A stretch of 64,000 nt of DNA from Heterodontus francisci (lineage: Eukaryota): NCBI RefSeq assembly GCF_036365525.1, contig NC_090399.1, positions 42,378,430 to 42,442,429 of the forward strand, given 5' to 3'. A program made the position numbers and the translations under genes. Positions 4,881-63,542 of this stretch are shown here, in pieces (within the stretch, counting starts at the first letter, position 1; the number at the start of each line of letters is the position of its first letter). Under the pieces are notes generated by a model. It did not search any database. It had not been told where the DNA came from and saw only the letters and a program-made list of their open reading frames with translations.

Positions 4881-4974
4881 ACAACGGCAGAGCAACTTAC
4901 CTTGGAACAATCTCCTGTGTCTAATAAAAATGAAGCAAATCTCCAAAACGACTAAATAATTCAGATAAAATGCG

Positions 4975-5325: not shown

Positions 5326-5389
5326 GATAAATATTTGACACAGAAAGTGACAGAGGGAAGAGTGTTATGAACAGGATGGGGTCATTCAT

Positions 5390-7400: not shown

Positions 7401-7440
7401 TCCTCATCACCACCCCTCTCAATTAATTGCATTGGGCTCA

Positions 7441-8200: not shown

Positions 8201-8204
8201 TGAT

Positions 8205-13800: not shown

Positions 13801-16800
13801 TAATAAACCACACAATTAATAAACCAGACCCTCCATAATAAACCTACAGAAGTAATAAAACAGACCCTCCATAATAAACCACAAAGGTAATAAACCAGAC
13901 CCTCCATAATAAACCACACAATTAATAAACCAGACCCTCCAGAATAAACCACAGAAGTAATAAACCAGACCCTCCATAATAAACCTACAGAAGTAATAAA
14001 CCAGACCCTCCATAATAAACCACACAATTAATAAACCAGACCCTCCATAATAAACCTACAGAAGTAATAAACCAGACCCTCCATAATAAACCACAAAAGT
14101 AATAGACCAGACTCTCCATAATAAACCTACAGAAGTAATAAACCAGACCCTCCATAATAAACCACACAATTAATAAACCAGACCCTCCATAATAAACCTA
14201 CAGAAGTAATAAACCAGACCCTCCATAATAAACCACACAATTAATAAACCAGACCCTCCATAATAAACCTACAGAAGTAATAAACAAGACCCTCCATAAT
14301 AAACCACAAAAGTAATAAACCAGACCCTCCATAATAAACCTACAGAAGTAATAAACCAGATCCTCCATAATAAACCACACAATTAATAAACCAGACCCTC
14401 CATAATAAACCTACAGAAGTAATAAACCAGACCCTCCATAATAAACCACACAATTAATAAACCAGACCCTCCATAATAAACCTACAGAAGTAATAAACCA
14501 GACCCTCCATAATAAACCTACAGAAGTAATAAACAAGACCCTCCATAATAAACCACAAAAGTAATAAACCAGACCCTCCATAATAAACCTACAGAAGTAA
14601 TAAACCAGATCCTCCATAATAAACCACACAATTAATAAACCAGACCCTCCAAAATAAACCTACAGAAGTAATAAACCAGACCCTCCATAATAAACCACAC
14701 AATTAATAAACCAGACCCTCCATAATAAACCTACAGAAGTAATAAACCAGACCCTCCATAATAAACCACACAATTAATAAACCAGACCCTCCATAATAAA
14801 CCTACAGAAGTAATAAACCAGACCCTCCATAATAAACCACACAATTAATAAACCAGACCCTCCATAATAAACCACACAATTAATAAACCAGACCCTCCAT
14901 AATAAACCTACAGAAGTAATAAACCAGACCCTCCATAATAAACCACACAATTAATAAACCAGACCCTCCATAATAAACCACACAATTAATAAACCAGACC
15001 CTCCATAATAAACCTACAGAAGTAATAAACCAGACCCTCCATAATAAACCACACAATTAATAAACCAGACCCTCCATAATAAACCACACAATTAATAAAC
15101 CAGACCCTCCATAATAAACCACACAATTAATAAACCAGACCCTCCATAATAAACCACACAATTAATAAACCAGACCCTCCATAATAAACCACACAATTAA
15201 TAAACCAGACCCTCCATAATAAACCTACAGAAGTAATAAACCAGACCCTCCATAATAAACCACACAATTAATAAACCAGACCCTCCATAATAAACCTACA
15301 GAAGTAATAAACCAGACCCTCCATAATAAACCTACAGAAGTAATAAACCAGACCCTCCATAATAAACCTACAGAAGAAATAAACCAGACCCTCCATAATA
15401 AACCACACAATTAATAAACCAGACCCTCCATAATAAACCACACAATTAATAAACCAGACCCTCCAAAATAAACCACACAATTAATAAACCAGACCCTCCA
15501 TAATAAACCACACAATTAATAAACCAGACCCTCCATCATAAACCACACAATTAATAAACCAGACCCTCCATAATAAACCACACAATTAATAAACCAGACC
15601 CTCCATAATAAACCACACAATTAATAAACCAGACCCTCCATAATAAACCACACAATTAATAAACCAGACCCTCCATAATAAACCTACAGAAGTAATAAAC
15701 CAGACCCTCCATAATAAACCACACAATTAATAAACCAGATCCTCCATAATAAACCACACAATTAATAAACCAGACCCTCCATAATAAACCACACAATTAA
15801 TAAACCAGACCCTCCATAATAAACCACACAATTAATAAACCAGACCCTCCATAATAAACCTACAGAAGTAATAAACCAGACCCTCCATAACAAACCACAC
15901 AATTAATAAACCAGACCCTCCATAATAAACCACACAATTAATAAACCAGACCCTCCATAATAAACCTACAGAAGTAATAAACCAGATCCTCCATAATAAA
16001 CCACACAATTAATAAACCAGACCCTCCATAATAAACCACACAATTAATAAACCAGACCCTCCATAATAAACCACACAATTAATAAACCAGACCCTCCATA
16101 ATAAACCACACAATTAATAAACCAGACCCTCCATAATAAACCACACAATTAATAAACCAGACCCTCCATAATAAACCTACAGAAGTAATAAACCAGATCC
16201 TCCATAATAAACCACACAATTAATAAACCAGACCCTCCATAATAAACCACAAAAGTAATAAACCAGACCCTCCATAATAAACCTACAGAAGTAATAAACC
16301 AGACCCTCCATAATAAACCACACAATTAATAAACCAGACCCTCCATAATAAACCTACAGAAGTAATAAACCAGACCCTCCAGAATAAACCACACAATTAA
16401 TAAACCAGACCCTCCATAATAAACCTACAGAAGTAATAAACCAGACCCTCCATAATAAACCACACAATTAATAAACCAGACCCTCCAAAATAAACCTACA
16501 GAAGTAATAAACCAGACCCTCCATAATAAACCACACAATTAATAAACCAGACCCTCCATAATAAACCTACAGAAGTAATAAACCAGACCCTCCATAATAA
16601 ACCACACAATTAATAAACCAGACCCTCCATAATAAACCACACAATTAATAAACCAGACCCTCCATAATAAACCACACAATTAATAAACCAGACCCTCCAT
16701 AATAAACCTACAGAAGTAATAAACCAGACCCTCCATAATAAACCTACAGAAGTAATAAACCAGATCCTCCATAATAAACCACACAATTAATAAACCAGAC

Positions 16801-19800
16801 CCTCCATAATAAACCTACAGAAGTAATAAACCAGACCCTCCATAATAAACCACACAATTAATAAACCAGACCCTCCATAATAAACCTACAGAAGTAATAA
16901 ACCAGACCCTCCATAATAAACCACACAATTAATAAACCAGACCCTCCATAATAAACCACACAATTAATAAACCAGACCCTCCATAATAAACCTACAGAAG
17001 TAATAAACCAGACCCTCCATAATAAACCACACAATTAATAAACCAGACCCTCCATAATAAACCTACAGAAGTAATAAACCAGACCCTCCATAATAAACCA
17101 CACAATTAATAAACCAGACCCTCCATAATAAACCTACAGAAGTAATAAACCAGACCCTCCATAATAAACCTACAGAAGTAATAAACCAGACCCTCCATAA
17201 TAAACCTACAGAAGTAATAAACCAGACCCTCCATAATAAACCACACAATTAATAAACCAGACCCTCCATAATAAACCACACAATTAATAAACCAGACCCT
17301 CCATAATAAACCACACAATTAATAAACCAGACCCTCCATAATAAACCTACAGAAGTAATAAACCAGACCCTCCATAATAAACCACACAATTAATAAACCA
17401 GACCCTCCATAATAAACCTACAGAAGTTATAAACCAGACCCTCCATAATAAACCACACAATTAATAAACCAGACCCTCCATAATAAACCTACAGAAGTAA
17501 TAAACCAGACCCTCCATAATAAACCACACAATTAATAAACCAGACCCTCCATAATAAACCTACAGAAGTAATAAACCAGACCCTCCATAATAAACCTACA
17601 GAAGTAATAAACCAGACCCTCCATAATAAACCACACAATTAATAAACCAGACCCTCCATAATAAACCACACAATTAATAAACCAGACCCTCCATAATAAA
17701 CCTACAGAAGTAATAAACCAGACCCTCCATAATAAACCACACAATTAATAAACCAGACCCTCCATAATAAACCACACAATTAATAAACCAGACCCTCCAT
17801 AATAAACCTACAGAAGTAATAAACCAGACCCTCCATAATAAACCACACAATTAATAAACCAGACCCTCCATAATAAACCTACAGAAGTAATAAACCAGAC
17901 CCTCCATAATAAACCTACAGAAGTAATAAACCAGACCCTCCATAATAAACCACACAATTAATAAACCAGACCCTCCATAATAAACCTACAGAAGTAATAA
18001 ACCAGACCCTCCATAATAAACCTACAGAAGTAATAAACCAGACCCTCCATAATAAACCACACAATTAATAAACCAGACCCTCCATAATAAACCACACAAT
18101 TAATAAACCAGACCCTCCATAATAAACCTACAGAAGTAATAAACCAGACCCTCCAAAATAAACCTACAGAAGTAATAAACCAGACCCTCCATAATAAACC
18201 ACACAATTAATAAACCAGACCCTCCATAATAAACCTACAGAAGTAATAAACCAGACCCTCCATAATAAACCACACAATTAATAAACCAGACCCTCCATAA
18301 TAAACCACACAATTAATAAACCAGACCCTCCATAATAAACCACACAATTAATAAACCAGACCCTCCATAATAAACCTACAGAAGTAATAAACCAGACCCT
18401 CCATAATAAACCTACAGAAGTAATAAACCAGATCCTCCATAATAAACCACACAATTAATAAACCAGACCCTCCATAATAAACCTACAGAAGTAATAAACC
18501 AGACCCTCCATAATAAACCACACAATTAATAAACCAGACCCTCCATAATAAACCTACAGAAGTAATAAACCAGACCCTCCATAATAAACCACACAATTAA
18601 TAAACCAGACCCTCCATAATAAACCACACAATTAATAAACCAGACCCTCCATAATAAACCTACAGAAGTAATAAACCAGACCCTCCATAATAAACCACAC
18701 AATTAATAAACCAGACCCTCCATAATAAACCTACAGAAGTAATAAACCAGACCCTCCATAATAAACCACACAATTAATAAACCAGACCCTCCATAATAAA
18801 CCTACAGAAGTAATAAACCAGACCCTCCATAATAAACCTACAGAAGTAATAAACCAGACCCTCCATAATAAACCTACAGAAGTAATAAACCAGACCCTCC
18901 ATAATAAACCACACAATTAATAAACCAGACCCTCCATAATAAACCACACAATTAATAAACCAGACCCTCCATAATAAACCACACAATTAATAAACCAGAC
19001 CCTCCATAATAAACCTACAGAAGTAATAAACCAGACCCTCCATAATAAACCACACAATTAATAAACCAGACCCTCCATAATAAACCTACAGAAGTTATAA
19101 ACCAGACCCTCCATAATAAACCACACAATTAATAAACCAGACCCTCCATAATAAACCTACAGAAGTAATAAACCAGACCCTCCATAATAAACCACACAAT
19201 TAATAAACCAGACCCTCCATAATAAACCTACAGAAGTAATAAACCAGACCCTCCATAATAAACCTACAGAAGTAATAAACCAGACCCTCCATAATAAACC
19301 ACACAATTAATAAACCAGACCCTCCATAATAAACCACACAATTAATAAACCAGACCCTCCATAATAAACCTACAGAAGTAATAAACCAGACCCTCCATAA
19401 TAAACCACACAATTAATAAACCAGACCCTCCATAATAAACCACACAATTAATAAACCAGACCCTCCATAATAAACCTACAGAAGTAATAAACCAGACCCT
19501 CCATAATAAACCACACAATTAATAAACCAGACCCTCCATAATAAACCTACAGAAGTAATAAACCAGACCCTCCATAATAAACCTACAGAAGTAATAAACA
19601 AGACCCTCCATAATAAACCACACAATTAATAAACCAGACCCTCCATAATAAACCTACAGAAGTAATAAACCAGACCCTCCATAATAAACCTACAGAAGTA
19701 ATAAACCAGACCCTCCATAATAAACCACAAAAGTAATAAACCAGACCCTCCATAATAAACCTGCAGAAGTAATAAACCAGACCCTCCATAATAAACCTAC

Positions 19801-20095
19801 AGAAGTAATAAACCAGACCCTCCATAATAAACCACACAATTAATACACCAGACCCTCCATAATAAACCACACAATTAATAAACCAGACCCTCCATAATAA
19901 ACCACAGATGTAATAAACCAGACCCTCCATAATAAACCACACAATTAATAAACCAGACCCTCCATAATAAACCACAAAAGTAATAAACCAGACCCTCCAT
20001 AATAAACCACAAAAGTAATAAACCAGACCCTCCATAATAAACCTACAGAAGTAATAAACCAGACCCTCTGTAATAAACCACACAATTAATAAACC
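10880..20095. repeat. ~9.2-kb satellite, 35/36-bp unit with two major interspersed variants
   Basis: Constant part taataaaccagaccctccataataaacc followed by acacaat (35 bp) or tacagaag (36 bp); degenerate units at 10880-11100. Confidence 0.99.
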
Positions 20096-21275
20096 ATGAT
20101 GATGGTATCTGTCCATCTCGGGAGACAATGGACTTTGTCCAAGGTGTGTGTCATTTCTGAATTGAACAACTTCTGTTGTGGCTGTGGAGGCTGGCTCGTG
20201 AGTGGCATTCCCTTACACAGCTGGCACAGATGAACAACATTGGCCCAAGGTTTGTTTCTGTTTGTTTTCCTTCTGCCGGCCTCTCTTTTCTGCCATCATT
20301 TATTTTGTCTTCTGCTTTTTCCACACTCTTCCTGACTGCCTTTCTCCAGACACTCCAGTCAGTGTAGTATAATGGCCTGAAAGGGTTAATGTTTGAGACA
20401 GTGAGAGTAAACCCCTCCCATAGCAATGATGAGGATGTAATGGTCACATGGGTATTAGGCTGGGAAGAAGCTAGAAGCAGCACGAGAAGTGTTGGCTAGA
20501 CAGGCTTGTGGAGAGTGTAAATAGTTATATGTATATTATAAACAAGTTATTCATTAACCCTGCAAAGACTCTGAAACTTCTGTTAACAACACTCAATCCA
20601 GGCGACAACAATACCCAAGAGTCAGCAGCAAGGACTTCCCACACATCGACTCTGATCCCGGTCAATTTGAGGTCTAGCTTTCAGACATCCTTGTATCGCA
20701 GACATGGATGACCTGTTGGTCTCGGCCAATAGCTCGCGTCTTTGTGTATGCAGCCATCAGCTGTCACTCATTTAGCCAACGAATTTGCCGCTGACTCAAG
20801 AGGGCAAACATGCTGGGGATCCCTATACACCGGTATACTTCTGTATTTGACACACTGTCCTGCCAGGAGATGCCCAATATCTGTCTGAGGCAGCAGAGCT
20901 GGAAGCTGTTCAGTCACTTTTCTTGGCTTGCACAAGTTGTCCATGTTTCGCTACTATAAAGGAGGGTGCTGAGAACACAAGTCTGGTACACGCAGAGCAT
21001 TGTATTTTCGGTTAGTTTGCTGTTGGTCCACACTCACCTTCTCAACTTTAACATGACAGCTGCGGCCTTGGCAATGTTGGTGCTGATTTCGGCATCAAAG
21101 GGGCAGGTTGCTGGTGATTGTTGATCCAATGTATGTGAAGCTGTCGCTGACCTCCAGAGTGAGGTTGTCCATGTTGATGGAAGGTGGAGTCTCTATGTCC
21201 TGACACATATCTTTTGTCTTCCTGACACTGATCATCAGTCTAAACTCCTTGCAGGCCCAGGAGAACCGATCTACA
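20096..21275 (-). mobile_element. RTE-clade LINE 3' portion (RT end, C-terminal CCHC-like motif, (CAT)n tail)
   Basis: Minus translation WEVLAAD-WSVWRKAV...CASCVRECHSRASLHSHNRSC; atgatgatg tail at 20096. Confidence 0.85.
20363..20620. mobile_element. 258-bp solo-LTR-like insertion in the RTE
   Basis: Starts TGTAGT, ends caaga (inferred caaca); 5-bp TSD GTCAG at 20358-20362 and 20621-20625. Removing it restores the RTE frame. Confidence 0.75.
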
Positions 21276-38345: not shown

Positions 38346-39350
38346 GTAAACTAAACCTTGTCCTAGGAGTGTGTTTAAACACCAACTCATAAGTTGTGCA
38401 ACCTGTTGTAGACTATGGGATTATTCTGTAAGAGAACAGAAAATAGTCTAGCCTGTGTCAAAGAGAAACATGGAAATTACTGCCTAGCTTGTCAACTATC
38501 AAATACTTCTGCAAAGACCTCGTCACAATTTGTACACTTCTTTCTGCAGCACCATTCGATGCTGGGTGATATGGTGGTTTTAGAGTGTGATTGACTCCAC
38601 ATTCTTACTCAGAAATATTTCAAACTCTTCTGACATAAACTGTGGACCATTATCTGACACCAATACCTCTGGCAACCCATAAATTGCAAAACAACTTCTC
38701 AAAACCTCAATACTTTTATTACTTGTGGTATTGGGGATGGACTCGACATTTATCCACTTGCTATAGCTATCGACCAAAACAAAATACTCTTTTCCTTCCA
38801 CTTCTAAGAAATCGACATGTACTTGTTCCCACGGTTTTCTTGTGTTTGACCATGGAACGAAAGGAACCTTGTTTGGATCATTTCTCATTCTGAGACACAC
38901 CACAACTTTTTACCAACTCTTCAATATCTCGATCTACCTTTGGAGACTAAAAATAGCTTCTTGCTACTGTTTTCATCTGGACTATCTCTGTGTGCTCTTG
39001 ATGAAGTTCCTCTAACAATCTCTTTCTAAACCTTGGTGGAATAATGACTCTTAAATCCCATAGGAAACAGCCTTGATCTACACTCAGTTCATTTCTACGT
39101 GTGAAATACTCCTGCAATTTCTCATCATCACACTCTTTAGACCAGACATTCATGACATAATTGAACACTTTACTGAGCACCACATCCTTGTGAGGTTCTT
39201 CACTAATTTTTCAGGTTTTAATTTAAGTTTTGTTTCATTTCCCTGTTTGAACAAATATATTTATTTATACTACACATAACAGGGGCCTGGAGAATAAAGG
39301 CTCCCTCGACAACTAAAAAAGAGATACATCGTCAAGCTCCCTGTACACTT
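38345..39350 (-). mobile_element. Gypsy/Ty3 pol fragment (integrase), copy 1
   Basis: LEELHQEH...ARSYF, PWEQVHVDF, LVSDNGPQF, HPASNGAAE. Confidence 0.9.
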
Positions 39351-39844: not shown

Positions 39845-40183
39845 TGGCACAGTGGCGCAGTGGTTAGCACCGCAGCCTCACAGCTCCAGCGACCCGGGTT
39901 CAATTCTGGGTACTGCCTGTGTGGAGTTTGCAAGTTCTCCCTGTGTCTGCGTGGGTTTCCTCCGGGTGCTCCGGTTTCCTCCCACATGCCAAAGACTTGC
40001 AGGTTGATAGGTTAATTGGCCATTATAAATTGCCCCTAGTATAGGTAGGTGGTAGGGAAATATAGGGACAGGTGGGGATGTGGTAGGAATATGGGATTAG
40101 TGTAGGATTAGTAAAAATGGGTGGTTGATGTTCGGCACAGACTCGGTGGGCCGAAGGGCCTGTTTCAGTGCTGTATCTCTAAA
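39845..40183 (+). mobile_element. HE1-like V-SINE, full length
   Basis: ggcacagtggcgcagtggttagcacc (A box) ... gggttcaattc (B box), V-core, tail cctgtttcagtgctgtatctct. Confidence 0.93.
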
Positions 40184-40321
40184 AACTAAAAGAAAGTGAG
40201 AGCAAATGACAGACAAAGCGAGAGATGAAGAGGGAAACAGAGACAGAGATATAGGGAAAGAGAGAGAGAAAACAAGAGACTGAAAGAGAATGTGAGAGCC
40301 TGTATCAAAGAGAAAGATGGA

Positions 40322-40905
40322 GACATGGAAATTACTGCCTAACTTGTCACCTAGCAAATACATCTGCAAAGACCTCTTCACAATTTGTACACTTCTTTCT
40401 GCAGCACCATTTGATGCTGGGTGATATGGTGATATTAGAGTGTGTTTGACTCCATTCTTACTCAGAAATATTTCAAACTCTTCTGACATAAACTGTGGAC
40501 CATTATCTGACACCAACACCTCTGGCAACCCATAAATTACAAAACAACTTCTCAAAAACTCAATAGTTTTAGTACTTGTGGTATTGAGCATAGAGTCAAC
40601 ATTTATCCACTTGCTATAGCTATCGACCAAAACAAAATACTCTTTCCCTTCCACTTCAAAGAAATCAACATGTACTTGTTCCCATGGTTTTCTTGTGTTT
40701 GATCATGGAATGAAAGGAACCTTGGTTGGATTATTTCTCATTCTGAGACACACTTCACAACTTTTCACCAACTCTTCAATATCTCGATCTACCTTTGAAG
40801 ACAAAACTAGCTTCTTACTACTGCTTTCATACGGACTATCCCCGTGTGCTCTTGATGAAGTTCCACTTACAATCTTTCTCTAAATCTTGGTGGAATAATA
40901 GATCT
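40322..40905 (-). mobile_element. Gypsy integrase fragment, copy 2
   Basis: YFVLVDSYSKW...LVSDNGPQF...PYHPASNGAAERSVQ; closely similar to 38465-39050. Confidence 0.9.
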
Positions 40906-42300: not shown

Positions 42301-43801
42301 GGACTCAGCCCCGTCCATCTGAGCACCGCAAAGCTGAGGCCCCGGGGCTGTCGGCTCCTGTGCCGAGCCCGACCCCACTCCCTATCCTAGTCCCTCGGCT
42401 GGGCTTGTCCTGACACAAACCTCCCACACCCAACACCGTCTGACTCGGAGAAAGAGGAAGAAAGAGAGACGGCAGTGACCAGATGGTGGGAATGGAAGGG
42501 AGACGGACTCAAATAAAGTGTCTCCAGAAAAATAATCAATTCACATGAGAAGATTTCCAGCATCTGCAGCATTTTGAATTTTGTAAGAACATTTTTGTTT
42601 TCTGAGCAGATGTGAGGAGCTGAGAATCGAACCAATGGAGGTGGAGGAGAGACTGTGGCTGCTGTTTCTCCTCCTGTCCTGCAGGGGGTGGTGTTAGTCT
42701 CTTCCAGCCCCCACTCCCACCGCTGGGGGTATTTTCACATCCCCAGTGATTCCTGCTGTCATTCAGTTGATGGAAGTCTGGGGATAAATTTTCCATTTAT
42801 GGACTGGAAACATTGGGACCTGCCCCTGGGCTGCTCTCAGTTGTTTTGTTTATTCATTAATTGAATAATTGATGTAACTGGATATTTCACCGCGATCTTG
42901 ACCTGCTCTCTGAACTTGGACTGAGTTGCCCCATCAATAAATGTGTTTGTGCAGCAACTTAATGTCAGCAGCATATATTCGAATAACTGAAATATATATT
43001 CAGAATCGGTGTAATCCGTGTTCTGTTCCTGTAATGTTATAAGAATTCTGAAAAAAACACCAACCACAGAAGTATGAAGTTGCCGGATATGCTGAAGAGT
43101 AAAATCACAGACTTCCTTCTGCTCTCCATCTCTGGGTCACTGTGATTCTCTCCCTTGCTCTGACCCCTCAGTCCCTTACGGACTCGACTGGCCACTAAAA
43201 TGTATCTGACTGTCAGAGCGTTGAGCAACAGGATTAAAGCGAATGGGATCGATGGGGTTAAGACTATACTAAACAAGGCAAATCCCACCCATCCAGGATC
43301 AGTAAAATAGCTTGGCTTTGCAAACCAGAACCACGGTAGATTGTCGATTATCTCTCCAGGTTCATATATAAAGTAGAAGGGGACATTTTTTAAAACTGAG
43401 CAGAATACAGGTTGTTGCTAGAACCACAGCCGCAGTTTTCTTGGTGCAATATTTTGTTTTCAGCTTCTGGCAACAAATGGCCACAAATCGATCAAAGGTG
43501 AAAGTGACGGTGAACCAGACAGAACAGTCTATGGCTGCACAAAGCAGGAGAAGGATAACACTACACACAGGAATGATCCCTGGAAATAATAATAAATGAT
43601 CCGCCACAGTATGACCTCAGTGATAATGACCAGTAGATCCGCCGTTGCCATGGCCACCAGGTAGCCAGTGGTGCAGGTGGAGAGGCCGCACTTTCCCCGG
43701 GACAGGATCACAATCGCCAGTAAATTAACTGTAACAGAGAGAAGGGAAAAGAGACAGGAAATTACTGATCAAACATTCTCCGTGTCTGACCCAGACAGTA
43801 A

Positions 43802-44455
43802 GGGCAGGATTTTAGCACAAAAACAGGGGTCAGAGGTTAAAATATAGAAATCTTAACCCTGATCCCAACTGACCTCCAACCTGCCCACCTCCAGATCGGA
43901 CTTCACCCCTCCGTGGGATCTCACCCTACCACTCCCTGGAGTCAGACACCACCATCACTAGGACCATAACTCCCTGGGATCAGAGTCTCCTCCTTGGATG
44001 GGACTCCCCTACAGGCTCGGACCCGCTCTACCAGGATCAAACCACCTTCCCGTGTTCGGAAGCCCCCGAAAAATCAGGTTTCATCGTGTCTTGGATCAGT
44101 CACTCCCCTCGTCCTCCCCCGACTTGGACCACACTGTAGGAGAGGAGACCACTCCCCGGTGTTGAGGATCGACAGACCAGTGATCGGAGATGGCACCCCT
44201 CTCTCCCCCTCTGGAGATGGTGATTGGACACCCCCCGATATCAGGCATCTCCCCAAAACACCGGAGTCAGCATTTGGACCGCCCTGGTCTTGAGGCCTGC
44301 TCCAGAGTCCGCCCTGCCCGACTGGAGGCCAAGCCTGTCAATCAGGCTGACTTCAGGGTGGGGAACCTGTCAAGGATAAAAGAGGCAGTCTGTGGAGTTA
44401 AAACTCTGAAACTCTGCTCCCCACCTATGTCACTCACCCCTGTTAATATCCAGGA
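43802..44455. mobile_element. Possible non-autonomous DNA element (MITE-like)
   Basis: Imperfect inverted ends ggattttagca / tgttaatatcc; degenerate internal gga...actccc repeats. Confidence 0.3.
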
Positions 44456-44469
44456 ATAAACATTGGCGT

Positions 44470-45650
44470 AAAAACAAAATACTGAAACTGCTGTAAATCT
44501 GATAAAAATAGGAGAATATTGAAAAAACTCAGCAGGTCAGGCAGCATCTGTGGAGAGAGAAACAGAGTTAATGTTTCAGGCTGATGGGCTTTCATCAGAA
44601 CTGGAAGATATTAGAGATTAACAGTTTTAAAACAATCATGTAGTCAGTGAAAAGTCGGGTATAGGGGGAGGAAAGAACAAAAGGGAAGGTCTGTGATCGG
44701 GTGGAGGGCAGGAGTGATTCAATGATAAAAGGGATGATGGTGCAAGGTGAATGGGACAATTAAAGAAACAGAGGATGGGTCCAGAGGAGGTGTAAATGGT
44801 TACAGCAGAATAACAGAGGAGAAGGTTCCAGGGGCCGGGAAAAGTGATGGAGAATGGTGGGTAGACTCCAGGGGTGTGGACCAGCCTGCCAGCTGTGTAC
44901 TAATAAGGGATCCTCACCCCAAGCACCAGCCCACACCCCCTCCACTCCCAGTGACTCTGGTGTAGCCATCTTCCATTACCAGAACAGGCCGTCACAGAAA
45001 GTGGGGCCAACGGTTATAATCTGAAGTTTTTCATCTCAATGCTGAGTCTGAGAGGCAATAAGATCGCAAATTGAAAAATCCAGTGCTGTTCCTCATTGAA
45101 GTTCATTGGAAGGGTGTAGGTGGTTGGAGATAGAGAGGTCAGAGTGGGAGTGGGATGTAGAATTAAAATGACAAGTGACCAGAAGCTCAGGGTCACACTT
45201 GCAGACTGAACAGAGGAGCTCAGCAAAGCAATCACTCAATCTGTGTTTGCTCCTCTCCCAATGTCCAGGAGATTCCATCGTGAGCAGTGAATACTGTTAA
45301 TAAATTGAAAGAAGTCCAAGTAAATCACTGTTTCACCTGGAAGGAATGTTTGGGGCCTTGGACAGTGGGATTGGAGGAGGTAAAAGGGCAGGTGTTACAT
45401 CTCCTGTGCTTGCACGGGAAGATGCCTGGGGAAGAGGAGCTGATGTTGGGGGTGAATTAGGAGTGAATCACAATGAATGGGGGGAAGGGAGGGGAGCAGA
45501 ATATATGTTTGGTGTTGGACTTAGCTGGATGTGGCAAAAATGTTGGAGGACGATCTGTTGAATGTGGAAGCTGGTGGGGTGGAAGGTGAGGATAAGGGGA
45601 ACCTTATTATGGTTCTGGCAGAGAAGTGGGGGGGGGGGGGGTGCGGGGTG
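44470..45650 (-). mobile_element. Old Penelope-like element fragments
   Basis: pLTR-type end at 44470-44605; GIY-YIG remnant (HRLSDCFAE...CDPELLVTCHFN). Confidence 0.8.
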
Positions 45651-46145: not shown

Positions 46146-46614
46146 TGTAGTATTTATTTAATCATTAACAGTTTACTAATGTTATTATTTACTTCTCTCC
46201 ATCTGATGTCTGGAAAATGAAACCCTGATATATCTGTTCCTCAGTTATAGGTGTCTCTCCTCACAGGGACACACCTCACTGAGCTAAGGGCAGAGATTGG
46301 TAGAGGTTACATATGTCGAGACTCTGAATCATAGATAAGAATTGATCCGTCAAACCATAATCAGTTACAGAAGTGAATGATTCAATAAACACAGCCCAAT
46401 ATTCATCCTGTGTAATAGACAGATAATAAAATTCAACACTCATGACCCACAGATTCTCAGGACTATGTTGGGGAAAGGGATTAATCATCAATAAAATAAT
46501 TCAAGTGTTTACAGTAACTATACTCAGAATAAGAAAGTTCATTATACAGAGGATTAGAATGTTGTAACAGTGCTGTCCTGCTGTTTCACTGTCAGTAAGT
46601 AGTTAACATCTGTT

Positions 46615-48140
46615 TCTGAAATAAAAACATGAAATGCTGGAAATACTCAGCACGTCTGGCAGCATCTGTGGAGAGAGAAGCAGAGTTAATGTTTCAGGTC
46701 AGTGACCCTTCATCAGAACTGGTAAAGGTTAGAAATGTAATAGGTTTTAAGCAAATAAAGTGGAGGTGGGGCAAGAGATAACAAAAGAGAAAGCGTTGAT
46801 TGTGACCTTGTCCTGAGAATAACTGACCAGAAGGTCATGGAGCAAAGGCAAAGGAGTTAACGGTGTGCTGAAAGACAAAGCGTTAGTGCAGAGAGCGTGT
46901 TAATGGACAAAATAATGAACAGCCCTGGCCCAAAGCACAAACATGTAGAAAACAGTGGACAGGCGCATGGTAAGAAAAATGAACAATGAAAGAAACTAAA
47001 ATAAAATAAAATAAAATAAAATGGAAAAAAAGAAAAAAACTGAAAATTAAAAGGGAGCCCGTTATGCTCTGAAATTATTGAACTCAATGTTCAGTCCTGC
47101 ATGATATAGCGTGCCTAAATCAATAAATGAGCTGCTGTTCCTCGAGCTTGTGTTAATGTTCACTGGAACACTACAGCAAGCCCAGGACAGAGATGTGAGC
47201 ATGAGAGCAGGGGGGAGTGTTGAAATGGCAAGCAACTGGAAGCTCAGGGTCATGCTTGCGGACGGAGCGAAGGTGTTCCGCAAAGCGGTCACCCAATCTG
47301 CGTTTGGTCTCCCCAATGTAGAGGAGACCACATTGTGAGCAGCGAATACAGTATACTAAATTGAAAGTAGTACAAGTAAATCGCTGCTTCACCTGAAAGG
47401 CATGTTTGGGGCCTTGGATAGTGAGGAGAGAGGAAGTAAAATTAAAGGTATTACACCTCCTGTGATTGCAGGGGAAGGTGCCGTGGAAAGGGGACAAGGT
47501 GTCAGAGGTAATGAAGGAGTGAACCAGGGTGTTATGGAGGGAACGATCTCTTTGGAATGCCGACAGGGGAGGGAAGGGGAAGATGTGTTTGGTTGTGGCA
47601 TCACACTGGAGGTGGCGGAAATGGTGGAGGATGTGGAGGCTGGTGGGGTGGAAAGTGAGGACAAGGGGAACCCTGTCGTGGTTCTGGGAGGGAGGGGAAG
47701 GGGTGAGGGGAGGGGTGTGGAAAATGGGCCGGACACGGTTGAGGGTCCTGTCAACAACAGTGGGGGGAAATTCTCAGTTGAGGAAAAAGGAAGACATCAG
47801 AAGCGCTGATGTTGTGGAAGTTTGCATCATCAGAGCAGATGCGTCGGAGACGGAGAAACTGGGAGAATGGAATGGAGCCCTTACAGGAGGCAGGGTGTGA
47901 AGAAGTGTAGTCAAGGTAGCCGTGGGAGTTAGTGGGCTTATAATGAATATTAGTAGACAGCCTATCCCCAGAGATGGAGACAGAGAAGTCGAGGAAAGGA
48001 AGGGAAGGGAAGGGAAGTGTCAGAGATGGGCCATGGAAAGGTGAGAGAAGGGTGGAAACTGGAAGCAAAGTTGATAAAGTTTTCCAGTCCGGGACGGGAG
48101 CAGGAAACAGCACCGATACAGTCATCAATATACTGGAAAA
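46615..48140 (-). mobile_element. Penelope-like element (RT end, GIY-YIG endonuclease, pLTR)
   Basis: LPFLDFSV...YKPTNSHGYLDYTSSHP...SIPFSQFLRLRRICS; NLVYCIRCSQCGLLYIGETKRRLGDRFAEH. Confidence 0.95.
46686..46722 (-). ncRNA. Minimal type I hammerhead-ribozyme motif in Penelope pLTR (also 44566-44602 minus and 63082-63118 plus)
   Basis: agtt-CTGATGA-agggtcactgacct-GAAAC-att-aact: conserved core with stem I agtt/aact and a short stem II. Confidence 0.65.
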
Positions 48141-48569
48141 AGAGTCACTGAATAAAACCAGAGACCAGCTCGCACACAGATTTACACAACTTCAATGGCT
48201 ATAGTCACTTACCAGGAACACCAATGACAGCAAGAATTGGGTAATATATTTTCATGATACTGTCAATAGGAAGATACATTTTCTGTGTGAAGTGATGTGT
48301 CCCTTTGTACTGCAGACAATCTCTCTGTATTAAACTCTGAGGCGACATTTTTCAAACTTTTTTTTAATTGAACAGATACATCAAGTTCAGTCCGTGTATA
48401 TTTATATTTTTGATTTCTGAGATTGAATTGGAAAACTCCAAAGACTGGACAATTCTGATCACATTAAATAACTAATGAAAATTTGAAGCTGTATTCTCCA
48501 GCAATGAGGTTGTTCTTTCAAACACCATCAGTCCCATCTCTAGATCTCATGTTGTTTCAGTGATGTCCT

Positions 48570-48731
48570 TCACTCGACTGTGGTTCGGGTGGTGAAGAGC
48601 AGATTGTGGCCATTGTCCATCTGGGCCTTGAGCTGCAGGCTCTCATTGTAAAGCACAGTGAACTGGGACTGCAGGCAGTGACACTCTGGGGAGTCCTTCA
48701 CCATCTCACTGGCAAGAGTCTTCAGCTGTTC
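48570..48731 (-). pseudogene. Orphan exon of an RNF20/BRE1A-like E3 ubiquitin ligase
   Basis: ctccctag|[53 protein letters not shown]; resembles RNF20 as I recall it ([36 protein letters not shown]). Confidence 0.8.
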
Positions 48732-48894
48732 CTAGGGAGGGGAGAGTGGGGAGGAGACACAGGACAAGGACAGGGTTAACCAGAGAGAGAGAGATTCACT
48801 GTCCTACACCTTGCCTGCCCAGAGTAAACACAGGAACAGGAGGAGGCCACTCAGCCCCTCAAGCCTGTTACAGAGTGTTAGGAAATCGTACGAA

Positions 48895-51780
48895 CATACA
48901 AATTAGGAGCAGGAGTAGGACACATGGCCTATCGAGCCTGCTCTGCCTTTCAATAAATTCATGGCTGAACTGATTACTCCACATTTCCACCTACCCTCGT
49001 TAACCTTACACCTCCTTTCTTATCAAGAATCTATCCACCTCTGCCTTAAAAATATTCAAAGACTCTGCTTCTACCACCTTTTGAGGAAGAGAATTCCAAA
49101 AACTCAGAACGCTCTGCGAGAAAAAAATTCTCCTCATCTCTGTTTTAAACAGTGACCCCTGGTTCTCGATTCTTCCACAAGGGGAAACATCCTTTCCACA
49201 TCCACCCTGTCAAGACGCCTCAGGATCTTGTATGTTTCAATCAAGTCACCTCTTACTCTTCTAAATTCCAGAGGATACAAGCCTAGCCTGTCCAATCTTT
49301 CCTTGTAAGACAGCCCACCCATTCCAGGTATTAGCCTAATAAACCATCTCTGTACTGCCTCCAATGCATTTACATTCTTCCTTAAATAAGGAGACTAGTA
49401 CTGTACACAGTATTCCAGATGTGATCTCACCAATGCCCTGTATAGCTGAAGCATAACCTCCCTACTTTTGTATTCAATTCCCCTCGTGATAAACAATAAC
49501 ATTCTATGAGGTTACGTGCTGTACCTGCATACGAACACTTTGTGATTCATGCACTAGGACACCCAGATCTCTCTGCATCTCAGAGCTCTGCAATCTCTCA
49601 CCATTTAGATAAATGCTTCTTTTTTATTCTTCCTGCCAAAGTGGACAATTTCCCACTTTCCCACATTGTACTCCATTTGCCAGGTTTTTGCCCACTCATT
49701 TAATCTATCTATATCCCTTTGTAACCTCCTTATGTCCTCTTCACAAGTTACTTTCCTACCTATCTTTGTGTCATCAGCAAATTTAGCAACCATACCTTCA
49801 GCCCCTTCTTCTACGTCATTTAGATAAATTGTAAAAAGTTGAGGCCTCAGCACAGATCCCTGTGGCACACCACTCGTTACATCTTGCCAACCAGAAAATT
49901 ACCCATTTATGCCTATTCTTTGTTTCCTGTTCGCTAACCAATCTTGTATCCATTCCAATATGTTACCCCCTACTCTATGAGATTTTATTTTCTGCAATAA
50001 CCTTTGATGCGGCATCTTTTCAAATGCCTTCTGGAAATCTAAACACAATACATCCACAGCACATGTAACTCCCTCAGAGAACTCCAATAATTTGGTTAAG
50101 CATGATTTCCCTTTCACAAAACCATGTTGACTCTGCCTGATTACCTTGAATTTTTCTAAATGCCCTGTTATAATGTCTTTAATAATAGCTTCTAATATTT
50201 TCCCTATGACAGATGTTAAGCTAACTGGCCTGTAGTTTCCTGCTTTCTGTCTCCCTCCCTTTTTGAATAAAGGAGTTACATTCGCTATTTTCCAACTAAT
50301 GGAACTTTCTCCAAATCTATGGAATTTTGGAAAATTAAAACTAACCCATCAACTATCTCACTAGCCACTTCTTTTCAGATCTTAGAATGAAGTGCATCAG
50401 GACCAGGGGCCTCGTCAGCTCACAGCTCCTACAATTTGTTCAGTACCACTTCCCTAGTGATCGTAATTTTCTTGAGTTCCTCCCTCCCTTTTATTTCCTG
50501 ACTGACAGCTAATACTGGGATGTTACTTGTATCCTCAATAGTGAAGATTGATGCAAAATACCTGTTCAATTCATCTGCCATCTCCTTATTATCCAATAAT
50601 AATTCCCCAGACTCACTTTCTATAGGACCAATGCTCAATTTTTTAAACTTTTTTTTTGCTATCCATAGAAACTCTTACTATCTGTCATTATATTTCCAGT
50701 TAACTTTCTCTCATACTCTAATTTTAGCTTCCTTATCAATCTTTTAGTCATTCTTTGCTGTTTTTTTTATATTCTGTCCAATCTTCTGACCTGCCTCCCT
50801 CCCATCTTTGCACAATTATAGGCTTTTTCTTTAAGTTTGATACTATCTTTAACTGTTTTAGCTAACTACGGATGGCAGGTCTCACCCTTGAAATTTTTCT
50901 TTCTCATTGGAATGTATCTATTCTGTATATTCTGAAATATCTCCTTAAATGTCTACCACTGCCTCTCTATTGACCTATCCCTTAACCTGATTTACCAGTT
51001 CACTTTAGCTAGTTCTGCTTTCATGCCCTCGTAAATGTCCTTATTTAAGTTTAAAATACTAGTCTCATACCCACTCTTCCCTCCCTCAAACTGAATATAA
51101 AATTCAATCATATTATGATCGCTGCTACCTAGGGGCGCCTTAACTATGAGGTCATTAATTAATCCTATCTTGTTGCACAATACCAGGTCTAGTATAGCCT
51201 GTTCTCTGGTTGGTTCCAGAATGTTTTGTTCCAAGAAACTATCCCGAAAACGTTCTATGTACTTCTCATCTAGGCTACCTCTGCGCATCTGATTTTTCCA
51301 GTCTAAATGCAGGTTAAAATCCCCCATAATTATCGCTGTACCTTTCTGACAAGCTGCCAATATTTCTTCCTTTATGCCCTATCCTACAGTGTGCTTAATG
51401 TTAGGTGACCTGTACACCACTCCCACAAGTGACTTCTTGTCTTTATGATTTCTCATCTCTACCCAAACTGCTTCTACATCCAAGTCTCCTGAACTTAAGT
51501 CATCTCTCTTAATTGCGCTAATCCCATCATTAATTAACAGAGCTACCCCTCCACCTTTTCCTAGCTTCCTGTCCTTCCTAAATGTCATGTATCCTTCAAT
51601 ATTCAGGTCCCAATCTATGTCGTCCTGCAGCCATGTCTCTGTAATGGCTATCAGATTTACTTATTTACTTATTTCTATTTGTGCTCTCAGTTCATCTGTT
51701 TTGTTTTGAATGCTACGTGCATTCAGATACAGAGCCTTTAGTTGTGTCCTTTTATTATTTGTGTAACCTCTAGCTTTATC
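48895..51780 (-). mobile_element. CR1 LINE, most of ORF2 (EN+RT), decayed
   Basis: FRKDRKLGKGGGVALL, IMGDFN, LGSSDHN, PQGSVL, KFADDTK, 3' tail at ~48900. Confidence 0.93.
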
Positions 51781-51784
51781 CTTT

Positions 51785-53085
51785 AGGAACATAGGAAAAT
51801 AGGAACAGGAGTAGGCCATTCAGCCCATCGAGCCTGCCCTGCCATTCAATATGATCATCGCTGATCATCCACTTCATTGCCTTTTCCACACTATCCACAT
51901 ATCCCCTTATGTCATTTGTATTTAGCAATCTGTCAATCTCTGCTTTAAACATACTGAATGACTGAGCTTCCACAGCCCTCTGGGGTAGAGAATTCCAAAG
52001 ATTCAAAACGCGCTGAGGACAGAAATTTCTCCTCATCTCTGTCCTAAGTGGCTTCCCCCTTATTTTGAAATTGTGTCCCCTGGTTCTAGACTCCCCAACC
52101 AAGGGAAACATCTCATCTATCGCTTTAAGTATTTTGTAGGTTTCAATGAGATCACCTCTCATTCTTAGAAACTCTAGAGAATACTGGCCCAGTTTCCCAA
52201 TCTCTCTTCATAGGACAGTCCTGCCATCCTGGGAACAAGTCTGGTGAATCTTTGTTGCACTCCCTCTATAGTAATAATATCCTTCCTAAGGTAAGGGGAC
52301 CAAAACTGCACACAGTACTCCAGGTGCAGTCTAACCAAGGTTCTATACAATTGAAGAAAGAATTCACTGCTCCTGCACTGAAATCCTCTTGTGATAAAGG
52401 TTAACATACCATTAGCCTTCCTAATTGCTTGCCACACCTGCATGTGAGCTTTCAGTGACATATTGACAAAGACACCCAGATCCCTTTGTAAATCTACACT
52501 TTCTAATCTATCATTTAAGAAATACTCTGCACATCTATATTCCTCCTAACAAAGTGGATAACCTCACATTTTTCCACATTATATTCCATCTGCCACGTTC
52601 TTGCTCACTCACGAAGTCTGTTCAAATCTCCTTGAAGCCGCTTTGCATCTTCCTCACGACACATATTCCCACCTAGTTTTGTGTCATCCATGAACTTGGA
52701 AATACTACATTTTGTCCCCACATCCAAATCATTATTATACATTGTGAACAGCTGGGGCTCAAGCACTGACCCCTGTGGTATCCCACTAGTCACAGCCTGC
52801 CAACGAAAGAATGACCCGTTTATTCCTACTCTCTGTTTTCTGCCTGTTAACCAATCCTTAATCCATGCTTAATCCTGATCGCCATATATTACCTCCTATC
52901 CCATGTGCTGTAATTTTGCAAACCAATCTCCTGTGGGGGACTTTATCAAAAGCCTTCTGAAAATCCAAATATACCATGTCCACTGACTCGCCTTTGTCAA
53001 TTCTGTTAGTAACATCCTCAAAAAACTCCAACAGGTTCTTCAAACATGATTTCCCATTCATAAATCCATGTTGACTATGCCAAAT
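51785..53085 (-). mobile_element. CR1 LINE 3' portion
   Basis: YLDFQKAFDKVPH, GIPQGSVL, LEYCVQFWSP, NLWNSLP. Confidence 0.93.
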
Positions 53086-54609: not shown

Positions 54610-54763
54610 CCTTCCCATCCCAAACATTAGGAAAACCCATCAATCCCACTCCCCAAACACAAGCAAAACCCATCAGTCCCACAAACACCAGCAGCAAAAC
54701 CCATCAAACCCACTCCCCAAATACAAGCAAAACCCATCAGACCCCAAACACCAGCAAAACCCA
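54610..54763. repeat. ~31-bp minisatellite, piece 1 (continues at 57183-57473 and 63381-63461)
   Basis: ccccaaacaccagcaaaacccatcagac units. Confidence 0.85.
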
Positions 54764-55110
54764 TGTTACAACCAGTTGCGAAAGGTGTCTAGGGGTCTGT
54801 TACTATCTTCACCTGGTCTTATTGTAACAGGGTTTAATTTTAAACAAAGTGTTTTGAGCTCCCCCTTTGTGAATCCTTGTTCTCAGTTTTCCAATAACAC
54901 AACAGAGAAACCAATTCACACAGGCTTTCTCAAGTTTAAAGAAGAAAGATGAAATGTCATCAAACCATAAAACTTAAACTATAATACGGTTCACGCCTAC
55001 GGATATAAAACATGCCCACACTGGCATGAACACACGATACACACATGCAAATAGGGAGAGTAAAGAGAAGAAAAGATAAGGTGGAACAGTTTGAAGCAAT
55101 ATCTTGTTAC
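54764..55110 (-). mobile_element. Truncated LTR-like fragment
   Basis: Starts TGTTACAACC, the antisense of a ...ggttgtaaca end like those of the other LTRs. Confidence 0.45.
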
Positions 55111-57182: not shown

Positions 57183-57473
57183 AAACCCATTCCCCAAATA
57201 CCAAAAATACGCATCAGACCGACTCCCCAAACACCAGCAAAACCCATCAGACCGACTCCCCAAACACCAGCAAAACCATCAGACCTCCAAACACCAGCAA
57301 AACCCATCAGACCCCCAAACACCAGCAAAACCCATCAGACCCCCAAACACCAGCAAAACCCATCAGACCCCCAAACACCAGCAAAACCCATCAGACCCCC
57401 AAACACCAGCAAAACCCATCAGACCCCCAAACACCAGCAAAACCCATCAGACCCCCAAACACCAGCAAAACCA
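57183..57473. repeat. ~30/31-bp minisatellite, piece 2
   Basis: Tandem cccaaacaccagcaaaacccatcagacc. Confidence 0.95.
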
Positions 57474-59635
57474 CTCTTGCAAACACACGAATTAAGAGCA
57501 GGAGTAGGCCACTCGGCCCCTCAAGCCTGCTCCGCCATTCAACAAGACCATGGCTGATCTGATTGTAACCTCGACTCCACATTCCTGTCTCCCCCCAACA
57601 ACCTTTCACCCCCTTGCTCTTAAAATATTCAAAGACTCTGCTTCCACCGCCTTTTGAGGAAGAGAGTTCCAAAGACTCACGATGGTCTGAGAGAAAAATA
57701 AGTTCTCATCTCTGTCTTAAATGCGTGACCCCTTATTTTTGAACAGTGGCCCCCTAGTTCTAGATTCTTCCACAAGAGGAAACATTATTTTCACATCCAC
57801 CCTGTCAAGACCCCTCAGAATCTTATATGTTTCAATCAAGTCGCCTCTTACTCTTCTAAACTCCAGCAGATACAAGCCTGGCCTGTCCAACATTTCCTCA
57901 TAAGACAACCCAGGTGTTTGTCTCGTAAACCTTTTCTGAACTGCTTCCAACGCACTTACATCCTTCCTTAAGTAAGGAGATCAATACTGTACACAGTACT
58001 CTAGATGTGGTCTCACCAATGCCCTGTGTAGCTAAAGCATAACCTCCCTACTTTTTTGTTCAATTCCCCTCACGATAAATGATAACATTCTATTAGCTTT
58101 CCTATTTACTTACTGTACCTGCATACTAACCTTTTGTAATTCATGCACTAGGACACCCAGAACCCTCTGCATCTCAGAGCTCTGCAAAATCTCACCATTT
58201 AGATAATACGCTTCTTTTTGATTCTTCCTGCCAAAATGGACAATTTCACATTTTTCCACATTATACTCCATTTGCCAGATCTTTTCCCACTCACTTAACC
58301 TATCTATATCCCTTTGTAGCCTCCTTATGACCACTTGACAACTTACTTTCCTACCTATCTTTGTGTCATCAGTATATTTAGCAACCATACTTTTGGTCCC
58401 TTCATATAAGTCATTTATATAAATTGTAGAAAGTTGAAGCCCCAGCACTGAACCCTGTGGCACACCACTCGTTACATCTTGTTAACCAGAAAATGACCCA
58501 TTTATGTCTGCTCTCTGTTTCCTGTTAGCTAGCCAATCTTCTATCCATGCCAATGTTACCCCCTACACCAAGAGCTTTTATTTTCTGCAATCACGTTTTA
58601 TATGGCATCTTTTCAAATGCCTTCTGGAAATCTAAGTACAGTACATCCACCGGTTCACCTTTATCCACAGGACATGTTACTTCTTCAAAGACCTCCAATA
58701 AATTGGTTAGACATGATTTCCCTTTCACAAAGCCATGTTGACTCTGCCTGATTACCTTGAATTTTTCTAAGCGCAGTCATAACATCTGTAATAATAGCTT
58801 CTAACATTTTCCCTAAGACAGATGTTAAGCTAATTGGCCTGTAGTTTCCTGCTTTCTATCTCCCTCCCTTTTTGAATAAAGGAGTTACATTGGCTATTTT
58901 CAAATCTAATGGAACCTTCCCCGAATCTAGGGAATTTTGGAAAATCAAAACCAACACATCTGCTGTCACACTGGCCACTTCTTTTAACACCCTAGGAGGA
59001 AGGCCATCAGGACCTGGGGACTTGTCAGCTCGCAGCTCCAACAATTTGCTCAGTACTACTTCCTTGGTGATTGTAATTTTCTTGAGTTCCTACCTCCCTT
59101 TCATTTCTTGATTTACAGCTACTTCTGGAATGTTACTTGTATCCTCTATGGTGAAGACCGAAGCAAAATATTTGTTCAATTCATCTGCCATCTCCTTATT
59201 TTCCCTTATTAATTCACCAGATTCACTTTCTATAGGACCAACGCTCAGTTTAACTCTTTTTAAAAAATATCTATAGAAACTCTGACCATCTGTTTTTCAT
59301 ATTTCTTGCCAGCTTTCTCTAGTACTCTAACTTTTCCCTCCTTATTAATCTTTTAGTCATTCTTTGCTGCTATTTTATATTCTGTCCAATCTTGACCTGC
59401 CACTCATCTTTGTGCAATTTTATGCTTTTTCTTTAAGTTTGATACTATCTTTAATGTTTTTAGTTAACCACGGATAGTGGGTCCTCCCCTTGGAATTTTT
59501 CTTTCTCGTTGGAATGTATCTATTCTGCGTATTCTGAAAAAAGCCCTTAAATGTCTGCACTGCATCTCTATTGACCTATCCCTTAACCTACTTTGCCAGT
59601 TCACTTTTGCTAGCTCTGCTTTCATTCCCTCATAT

Positions 59636-63214: not shown

Positions 63215-63542
63215 TATTTCTTCCTTTATACCCTGTCCTACAATGTGATAATTGTTCGGGGGCCTGTACACCACTCCCACAAGTGACTTCTTGCCTTTAT
63301 CATTTCTCATCTCGACCCAAACCGCTTCTACATCCTAGTTTCCTGAACTTAGGTCATCCCTCTCTATTAGCTCGATCCCTCTCCACTCCCCAACCACCAG
63401 CAAAATCCATCAGACCTACTCCGCAAACGCCAACAAAACCCATCAGATCCACTCCCCAAATAGGAGTAATACCGATTCTGGGAGAATGACAACTCTAAAC
63501 CTCTGGAAAGGAAACTGAGCAGCTGACAGGAATCCACGTCCA

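What the first reader, a model, noticed from the sequence alone, without database searches (positions are those of the whole stretch)
48570..48800. Orphan RNF20/BRE1-like exon ~290 bp upstream of the GPCR start codon, same strand
Seen: a pyrimidine-rich acceptor (ctctcccctccctag) followed by 53 codons containing [18 protein letters not shown], too short for the ORF track. It resembles a coiled-coil exon of the H2B ubiquitin ligase RNF20 (recalled, not searched). It retains intron sequence, so it is a DNA-level copy, and I found no other RNF20 exons in the window. Inference: a housekeeping-gene fragment built into the GPCR duplication unit, occupying the expected promoter/5' UTR position and possibly serving as a 5' exon, uORF or regulatory piece.
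Basis: partly seen in the sequence, partly recalled or inferred. Interest (0 to 1): 0.7.

Follow-up and report, generated by a model that had tools for sequence, protein, structure and literature searches.

The report
RNF20 exon captured by shark receptors
A broken piece of the housekeeping gene RNF20, still carrying its splice signal, is fused just in front of a dead shark receptor gene and recurs fused to the same receptor-upstream DNA in many other copies, where it likely no longer codes for protein but likely catches upstream transcripts as their last exon.

Summary
Window 48731-48580 (minus) is an RNF20/BRE1A exon fragment (88% amino-acid identity to Heterodontus francisci BRE1A) with its acceptor, 290 nt before the ATG of a GPR139-like receptor gene broken by three frameshifts. 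It is cut inside the exon, lacks its donor, and joins a DNA block shared by many receptor paralogs at a 3-nt microhomology. It is not a one-off: 5 of 8 listed DNA contigs of one run (80-87% alike) and 3 of 8 contigs of another organism bridge the same junction. RNA-type contigs cover the fragment deeply, stop at the acceptor and join foreign upstream exons; one contig splices this locus's receptor exon 1 to exon 2. All six amino-acid changes hit positions invariant in sharks, so the protein frame looks decayed. Best reading: an incomplete segmental duplication from nearby RNF20, amplified with the receptor unit, now likely a non-coding terminal exon with minor read-through. A regulatory role is untested. 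Evidence is short-read contigs from one call; no genome or long reads were available.

The parts
48732..48826 (-). Retained intron end with polypyrimidine tract and AG acceptor (AG at 48733-48732), inferred to be RNF20 intron; shared with other copies, which carry CAG where the window has TAG
   Evidence: 25 of 25 X2 contigs and 6 of 6 X7 contigs differ at 48734; DNA contigs cover to at least 48849, X1 and X9 depth is 0 from 48750 up
48580..48731 (-). 5' part of an RNF20/BRE1A coding exon (residues 379-429 of P0001), phase 0, cut inside the exon; six amino-acid changes at shark-invariant positions
   Evidence: (parental mRNA contigs join here at both ends)
48580..48582 (.). Fusion point; three bases fit both RNF20 and the receptor-upstream block (microhomology)
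   Evidence: table 7: parental RNF20 contig leaves at 48580; 24 X2 contigs with the block continue into non-RNF20 sequence after 48582; (loose end at 48580 encodes the next BRE1A residues)
48413..48582 (-). Block shared by many receptor paralogs upstream of exon 1 (likely promoter-side sequence); supplies the stop codon 48572-48570 and the 3' part of the abundant RNA
   Evidence: X2 depth 3500-8200, similar to receptor exon 1; joint rows link it to exon 1 or intron 1 within single contigs
48343..48412 (-). A/T-rich spacer peculiar to this lineage, with a TATA-like TATAAATA at 48406 and ATTAAA at 48368 (candidate poly(A) signal, inferred)
   Evidence: (X2 depth only 29-82 over 48366-48413; other copies diverge at 48413)
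48213..48342 (-). Receptor 5' flank and coding exon 1 (ATG 48279, donor after 48213); a further in-frame ATG at 48348
   Evidence: X1 record 2 splices this donor to exon 2
42837..43728 (-). Receptor exon 2, rhodopsin-family 7TM, broken by three frameshifts near 43575, 43390 and 43045
48827..53081 (-). Stacked LINE remnants directly upstream of the captured intron piece; no further RNF20 exon and neither foreign upstream exon found up to 64000

Best explanation
A piece of RNF20 (intron end, acceptor and most of one exon) is fused at a 3-base microhomology to DNA that lies upstream of many GPR139-like shark receptor genes, the fusion recurs in many copies, and it likely arose once by an incomplete duplication from a nearby RNF20 gene and now likely acts as a non-coding last exon that traps upstream transcripts. 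Shown: identity, truncation, junction, multiple diverged copies, spliced contigs that use the acceptor with non-RNF20 upstream exons in two organisms, and one contig that splices this locus's receptor exon 1 to exon 2. Inferred: microhomology-mediated joining; spread by tandem or segmental duplication of the receptor unit; a 3' end in the A/T-rich spacer between about 48408 and 48340; only a small read-through fraction reaching the receptor; no selected function at this locus, whose receptor is dead.
For: Identity. Junction and copies: tables 7 and 8; 5 of 8 listed X2 records (80-87% alike) and 3 of 8 listed X9 records (94-97%) bridge it; X7 records 20, 21, 23 form a chain with 30-letter overlaps at depth 10.7-13 across 48413-48821. 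X2 record 12 shares its end (48469) and depth (28.7) with a joint to receptor intron 1, so one contig likely holds both. Nearby parent: H. francisci BRE1A and 48 of the 120 listed receptor hits (20 of the top 25, counted by hand) lie on a contig of the same length, 74,466,956; BRE1A is XP_067865788/789 and a closest receptor is XP_067865794/796/797. RNA: X1 depth about 3100-12,700 over 48414-48725, 0 from 48750, 99-139 on exon 1; exact-window records 4, 5, 8 at 1440-5073 against 1115 for the parental 3' contig. Decay: window residues at the six changed positions occur 0, 1, 0, 0, 0, 0 times among 144-148 aligned homologs; X9 record 28 has a 15-letter deletion; no protein record with the fragment (0 of 120 receptors).
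Against: All DNA and RNA evidence is one call on short-read contigs; the tool warns that depth is neither copy number nor a good expression measure, table 8 shows 32 of about 1085 pieces, and X1's RNA label is a guess (its splice joins are my reason for treating it as RNA). No X1 record bridges the junction by 31 letters (record 5 overlaps it by 6); 0 of 8 listed X7 records do (27 and 25 letters). No single contig runs from the fragment to receptor exon 1 in RNA. The window fragment is 94-96% alike to parental pieces while other copies are 80-87% alike to the window, which one fusion with equal neutral decay does not explain. Two X1 contigs and one X9 contig join the acceptor position to RNF20's own previous exon; these may be the parent or a truncated duplicate. 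Accession order as gene order is my inference. The tree gave the window receptor no well-supported clade.
Confidence: 0.6

Rival explanations
1. The abundant RNA comes from a 3'-truncated duplicate of RNF20 that keeps the RNF20 promoter and earlier exons (beyond this window) and ends in the receptor-upstream block, possibly encoding a BRE1A N-terminal half without the RING domain.
For: Two X1 contigs and X9 record 32 (1409 letters) join the acceptor position to the previous RNF20 exon; no parental 3' contig is seen in X9, and depths 42 and 63 of records 32 and 30 could pair. A housekeeping promoter would explain deep cover and closeness to the parent. 3'-truncated duplicates are a described class (PMC6169893, passages).
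Against: No earlier RNF20 exon within the 15 kb upstream. No truncated BRE1A-like protein with the window's residues among 7, 1 and 141 hits. X9 record 31, which shares a derived base with the window by count of its four listed differences, is joined to a non-RNF20 exon; the missing parental contig may be the human-match filter.
Confidence: 0.15
2. The cassette is a selected regulatory device of the receptor array: upstream transcription is captured and run across the receptor promoter block, silencing the receptor by transcriptional interference or handing it a new expression domain by read-through.
For: The junction is kept in many diverged copies and in two or three organisms; RNA cover spans the shared upstream block and ends near a TATA-like motif; the expressed lineage is less diverged from the parent than other copies. 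Read-through silencing in tandem receptor arrays is described for ant odorant receptors (PMC12393541, abstract).
Against: Persistence follows from duplication alone; the receptor here is frameshifted; no stable RNA fold (z 0.99) and no Rfam family; many paralogs lack the fragment (24 X2 contigs continue into other sequence).
Confidence: 0.12
3. The fragment serves mainly as part of a new 5' UTR or uORF of receptor mRNAs, tuning receptor translation.
For: X1 record 2 (338 letters, depth 99) matches the window from 48437 through exon 1 and is spliced to exon 2, starting inside the deeply covered block; a 44-codon ATG-started ORF lies in the fragment.
Against: Depth falls about 50-fold before exon 1 and part of record 2's depth may come from the abundant RNA's 3' end; nine ATGs precede the first in-frame ATG; the receptor is broken; the 44-aa product is not in the protein collection and its changes look unconstrained.
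Confidence: 0.08
4. The fragment was carried by a transposable element (3' transduction, Pack-MULE or Helitron capture) and inserted several times independently, or is a retrocopy.
For: The window is rich in LINEs and holds a 491-aa MULE-type transposase ORF 45 kb away; two age classes of copies exist.
Against: Intron and acceptor are retained; the same junction recurs in diverged copies; no terminal inverted repeat, target-site duplication or poly(A) tail around the fragment in 47900-52000.
Confidence: 0.05

Closest known systems
Incomplete segmental duplications with fusion or exon exaptation (ARHGAP11B, SRGAP2B/C, CHRFAM7A, ROCK1P1, GTF2IP1; PMC6169893, passages read)
   Same: A DNA-level partial gene copy, cut within the gene, is placed beside other duplicated sequence and is transcribed with new upstream exons or a new 3' end; fusions rarely keep an ORF.
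   Different: Here the captured piece seems to be one internal exon fragment cut on its 3' side, it is repeated as part of a receptor multigene unit with copies 13-20% diverged, and it sits on the receptor's upstream block; the human cases are young, over 90% alike and few in copy.
RNF20/BRE1A (H2B ubiquitin ligase), H. francisci XP_067865788
   Same: 45 of 51 residues, same exon start and phase, a residue (S at codon 8) found only in the H. francisci protein among 135 aligned.
   Different: 51 of 997 residues, no donor, no RING, six changes at invariant positions, early stop.
Shark 'probable G-protein coupled receptor 139' expansion (automated NCBI name)
   Same: Two coding exons, 22-residue exon 1, 78-79% identity to P0030/P0129/P0130 with X at breaks (83% over aligned columns).
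   Different: Three frameshifts at this locus; the family is only distantly like human GPR139 (47 bits); no annotated member contains RNF20 peptide (0 of 120).
Read-through transcriptional interference in ant odorant receptor arrays (PMC12393541, abstract and outline only)
   Same: Tandem receptor array with non-translated upstream-initiated RNA running over a downstream gene.
   Different: There the RNA comes from neighbouring receptor promoters and silencing was studied; here a captured foreign acceptor is involved and no effect is shown.

Membership tests
RNF20/BRE1A-derived sequence | Best protein match is BRE1A rather than BRE1B | tested here: met
RNF20/BRE1A-derived sequence | Exon start coincides with the parental exon boundary | tested here: met
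   loose ends at 48732 encode the preceding BRE1A residues in 7 of 7 shark proteins
Functional RNF20 gene or paralog | Complete exon with donor, other exons and RING domain | tested here: not met
   only within this 64-kb window
Functional RNF20 gene or paralog | Purifying selection on the reading frame | tested here: not met
   six replacements at shark-invariant sites; about 6 of 8 base differences non-synonymous, as expected with no constraint (78% of sites); small sample
Incomplete segmental duplication with fusion or exaptation | DNA-level copy that keeps intron sequence and is truncated | tested here: met
Incomplete segmental duplication with fusion or exaptation | Transcripts join the duplicated exon to flanking or new exons | tested here: met
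   X9 record 28 bridges the junction and is joined at the acceptor to a foreign exon; a second foreign exon in X1 and X9; contigs, not full-length reads
Incomplete segmental duplication with fusion or exaptation | Block of at least 1 kb and over 90% identity shared with the source locus | not testable with these tools
   no genome held; upstream extent of RNF20 homology unknown
Processed pseudogene or retrocopy | Intron loss, poly(A) tail, target-site duplication | tested here: not met
   intron and acceptor kept; no flanking duplication
Transposon-captured gene fragment (Pack-MULE, Helitron, LINE transduction) | Element ends or target-site duplication flanking the fragment | tested here: inconclusive
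   one search found none in 47900-52000, but later LINE insertions could hide them
GPR139 orthologs | High similarity and one-to-one relation to human GPR139 | tested here: not met
   closest intact paralog P0129 scores 47 bits, E 1.5e-11, against human GPR139; 777 relatives; no tree with true orthologs was built
Transcriptional-interference RNA | Its transcription represses the downstream promoter | not testable with these tools
   needs per-cell or perturbation data

The most novel reading that the evidence does not exclude
A housekeeping-gene splice acceptor was captured once into the repeating unit of a large, undescribed shark GPCR family and became an array-wide switch: it traps upstream transcription and ends it across each receptor's promoter, gating which receptor copies are expressed, much as read-through does in ant odorant receptor arrays.
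Probability: 0.12. Interest if true: 0.8.

Novelty: new variant of a known kind. Interest (0 to 1): 0.5.

Why it matters
It shows how a fragment of an essential gene can ride along in a receptor gene expansion and stay actively spliced after losing its coding role, giving a dated marker for a subfamily of a very large shark GPCR family for which my searches found no paper. Paralogs with and without the fragment form a natural experiment on whether captured acceptors silence, re-wire or kill neighbouring receptor genes. It also warns that short reads from these copies can inflate RNF20 expression estimates in these sharks.

Tried and rejected
No genome of the window's own assembly is held, so no genome-wide count. 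My first reading of the 3' end as a 12-nt deletion was dropped after one search showed a fusion point. Two foreign upstream exons were not found in the window (0 matches at 3 mismatches; best 5 of 22 mismatches at 10567, which diverges beyond that) and matched no stored protein. Pfam has no hit on the 53-aa piece. Rfam: one sub-threshold hit (mir-1231, 23.6 bits against 80, E 0.42), treated as chance. RNA fold no better than shuffles (83 of 100 as good). Protein searches for a chimeric or truncated product: none. Tree of 123 receptor rows: no starred clade holds the window gene. Parts without cover in contigs (for example the parental contig over 48646-48711 in X1) are not read as absence, since human-like records are filtered. 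Five look-ups of earlier scan findings returned nothing. Paper searches: RNF20+GPR139 0 papers; horn shark+genome assembly+gene expansion 0; searches listed nothing on this fusion or family (listings and abstract starts only); the library lacks most subscription papers and no supplements were read.

Full report
Observation. On the minus strand a pyrimidine tract ends in AG at 48733-48732, followed by 53 open codons (48731-48573) and TGA (48572-48570); the receptor ATG is at 48279, 290 nt further on. The peptide hits seven shark BRE1A proteins, best H. francisci at 88% and E 2.3e-18, and human BRE1A above BRE1B (E 2.7e-12 against 2.9e-8). Seven BRE1A proteins find no other RNF20 piece in the window. 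The window's source is not given; its best matches are Heterodontus proteins, and the fragment shares one residue (codon 8, S) with only the H. francisci protein among 135 aligned homologs.

The neighbour. Exon 1 (48279-48213) and exon 2 (43728-42837) encode a rhodopsin-family receptor of a large shark family that NCBI names 'probable G-protein coupled receptor 139' (777 hits, 120 listed). Exon 2 has three frameshifts. The closest intact proteins are P0030, P0129, P0130 (78-79% with gaps), but the tree gives no well-supported clade. P0129 scores only 47 bits against human GPR139, so the name does not mean orthology. H. francisci BRE1A and 48 of the 120 listed receptors (20 of the top 25; my count) lie on a contig of the same length, and BRE1A's accession numbers (XP_067865788/789) are next to those of P0129 (XP_067865794/796/797). 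That the parent gene lies beside the receptor cluster is an inference from these two facts.

The junction. One lay of four contig sets on 48150-48850 at 80% likeness (X1 and X2 one sample of organism A, X7 organism B, X9 organism C) defines the anatomy. A 710-letter X1 contig matches 48580-48644 and then continues with the next BRE1A residues, so it is parental mRNA. Twenty-four X2 contigs that carry the block below 48582 continue into non-RNF20 sequence. The window therefore fuses RNF20 to a receptor-upstream block, with three bases (48580-48582) fitting both. The last nine codons of the exon and its donor are absent (exon end inferred from P0005 and P0128). The block 48413-48582 has X2 depth like receptor exon 1, and joint rows tie it to exon 1 or intron 1 in single contigs, with a variable spacer at 48343-48413.

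Copies. Of the 8 X2 records listed (933 laid), 5 bridge the junction with at least 31 letters on each side, at 80-87% identity; of 8 X9 records listed (12 laid), 3 do, at 94-97%; of 8 X7 records listed (46 laid) none meets the rule (27 and 25 letters), though records 20, 21 and 23 overlap by 30 letters at depth 10.7-13 across 48413-48821; of 8 X1 records listed (45 laid) none meets it (record 5 overlaps by 6). X2 record 12 shares end and depth (28.7) with a joint to receptor intron 1, so a diverged paralog likely has the whole arrangement. Ten to fourteen X2 contigs cover positions inside the exon. The cassette idea is thus supported, for a part of the family; contig depth is not a copy number.

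Transcription. X1 is labelled RNA only by guess, but it and X9 have no cover in the intron and show exon-exon joins, so I treat them as RNA. X1 depth is about 3100-12,700 over 48414-48725, with zero-difference records at 5073, 1994 and 1440, against 1115 for the parental 3' contig and 99-139 on receptor exon 1. At the acceptor, contigs join three kinds of upstream exon: RNF20's previous exon (two X1 contigs, X9 record 32), a foreign exon seen in both X1 and X9, and a second foreign exon in X9 record 28, which also bridges the junction and lacks 15 letters of the exon. Neither foreign exon is in the window. Depth falls 5073, 3253, 1604 toward 48408; a straight line through these reaches zero near 48326, and ATTAAA lies at 48368, so the 3' end is inferred between about 48408 and 48340. 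X1 record 2 matches the window from 48437 through exon 1, including the rare spacer, and joins exon 2; its one listed difference fits the splice point. Read-through from the fragment is inferred from graph continuity only; an own start inside 48437-48580 would look the same.

Coding capacity. The six replacements fall at positions invariant in 8 of 8 shark proteins; the window residues occur 0, 1, 0, 0, 0, 0 times in 144-148 aligned homologs, while other sharks differ from H. francisci at only 3-4 of 50 residues. Parental-type contigs differ from the window at 4 of 65 and 4 of 90 bases; with six replacements this is the neutral ratio (78% of sites), on a small sample. No protein record holds the fragment. 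A read-through RNA would carry nine ATGs before the first in-frame one. No RNA family or stable fold.

Mechanism. Most likely (0.6): an incomplete duplication of nearby RNF20 was joined to a receptor's upstream block by microhomology, the unit was amplified with the receptor array, and the intact acceptor now traps upstream transcription, making fragment plus block a non-coding terminal exon with minor read-through. Rivals: a 3'-truncated RNF20 duplicate driven by its own promoter (0.15), a selected interference switch (0.12), a receptor 5' UTR or uORF as the main role (0.08), transposon carriage (0.05).

Unexplained. The window fragment is 94-96% alike to parental pieces but other copies with the same junction are 80-87% alike to the window. 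This needs gene conversion from RNF20, slower decay in the expressed lineage, or recent spread of a conserved master copy. Which upstream exon feeds the deep X1 signal is also open.

Comparison. It works like human incomplete duplications with fusion and exon exaptation (PMC6169893, 12 passages read), and meets the two features I could test; block size and identity to the source could not be tested. It fails as an RNF20 paralog and as a retrocopy. The ant odorant receptor read-through model (PMC12393541, abstract and outline) is an analogy only. Searches for a description of this fusion or family found none, in a library that lacks most subscription papers. Verdict: real, repeated and spliced; a new variant of a known kind; function unproven; interest 0.5.

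Noticed in passing
window 2510-3988 (-): Uninterrupted 491-aa frame with MULE transposase and ZSWIM1/3 RNaseH-like domains: a possibly young Mutator-type element or domesticated gene.
   Followed up: partly
window 11069-20096: 9-kb array of a 35-bp unit, about 255 copies, 93% matches, strongly strand-skewed.
   Followed up: no
window 1-2170: 45-bp tandem array, 48 copies, open in several frames for hundreds of codons; probably a minisatellite.
   Followed up: no
window 44240-45300, 43730-43850 and 46280-46410 (intron 1 of the receptor): Intron pieces match wrongly predicted N-termini of several H. francisci paralogs (P0014, P0032, P0036, P0040, P0055, P0089), so much of intron 1 is shared across the duplication unit and many RefSeq models miss the true 22-residue exon 1.
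   Followed up: partly
P0129 (H. francisci): One identical 325-aa receptor has at least four accessions, pointing to a very recent tandem amplification next to BRE1A by accession order.
   Followed up: no
window 38580-38909 and 40097-40702 (-): Two integrase-core remnants (rve, for the second) of an LTR element, separated by SINE and simple repeats.
   Followed up: partly
window 45129-45650 and 47062-48191: Two Penelope-like GIY-YIG remnants (71% alike) inside receptor intron 1.
   Followed up: partly
window 54614-54774, 57183-57485, 63383-63476: A 28-33 bp repeat family recurs three times at LINE ends upstream of the cassette.
   Followed up: no
X1 records 7 and 8 (48646-48711): Two near-equal expressed variants (depth 2042 and 1994) both carry the window's private base at 48659: two alleles or very recent duplicates.
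   Followed up: no
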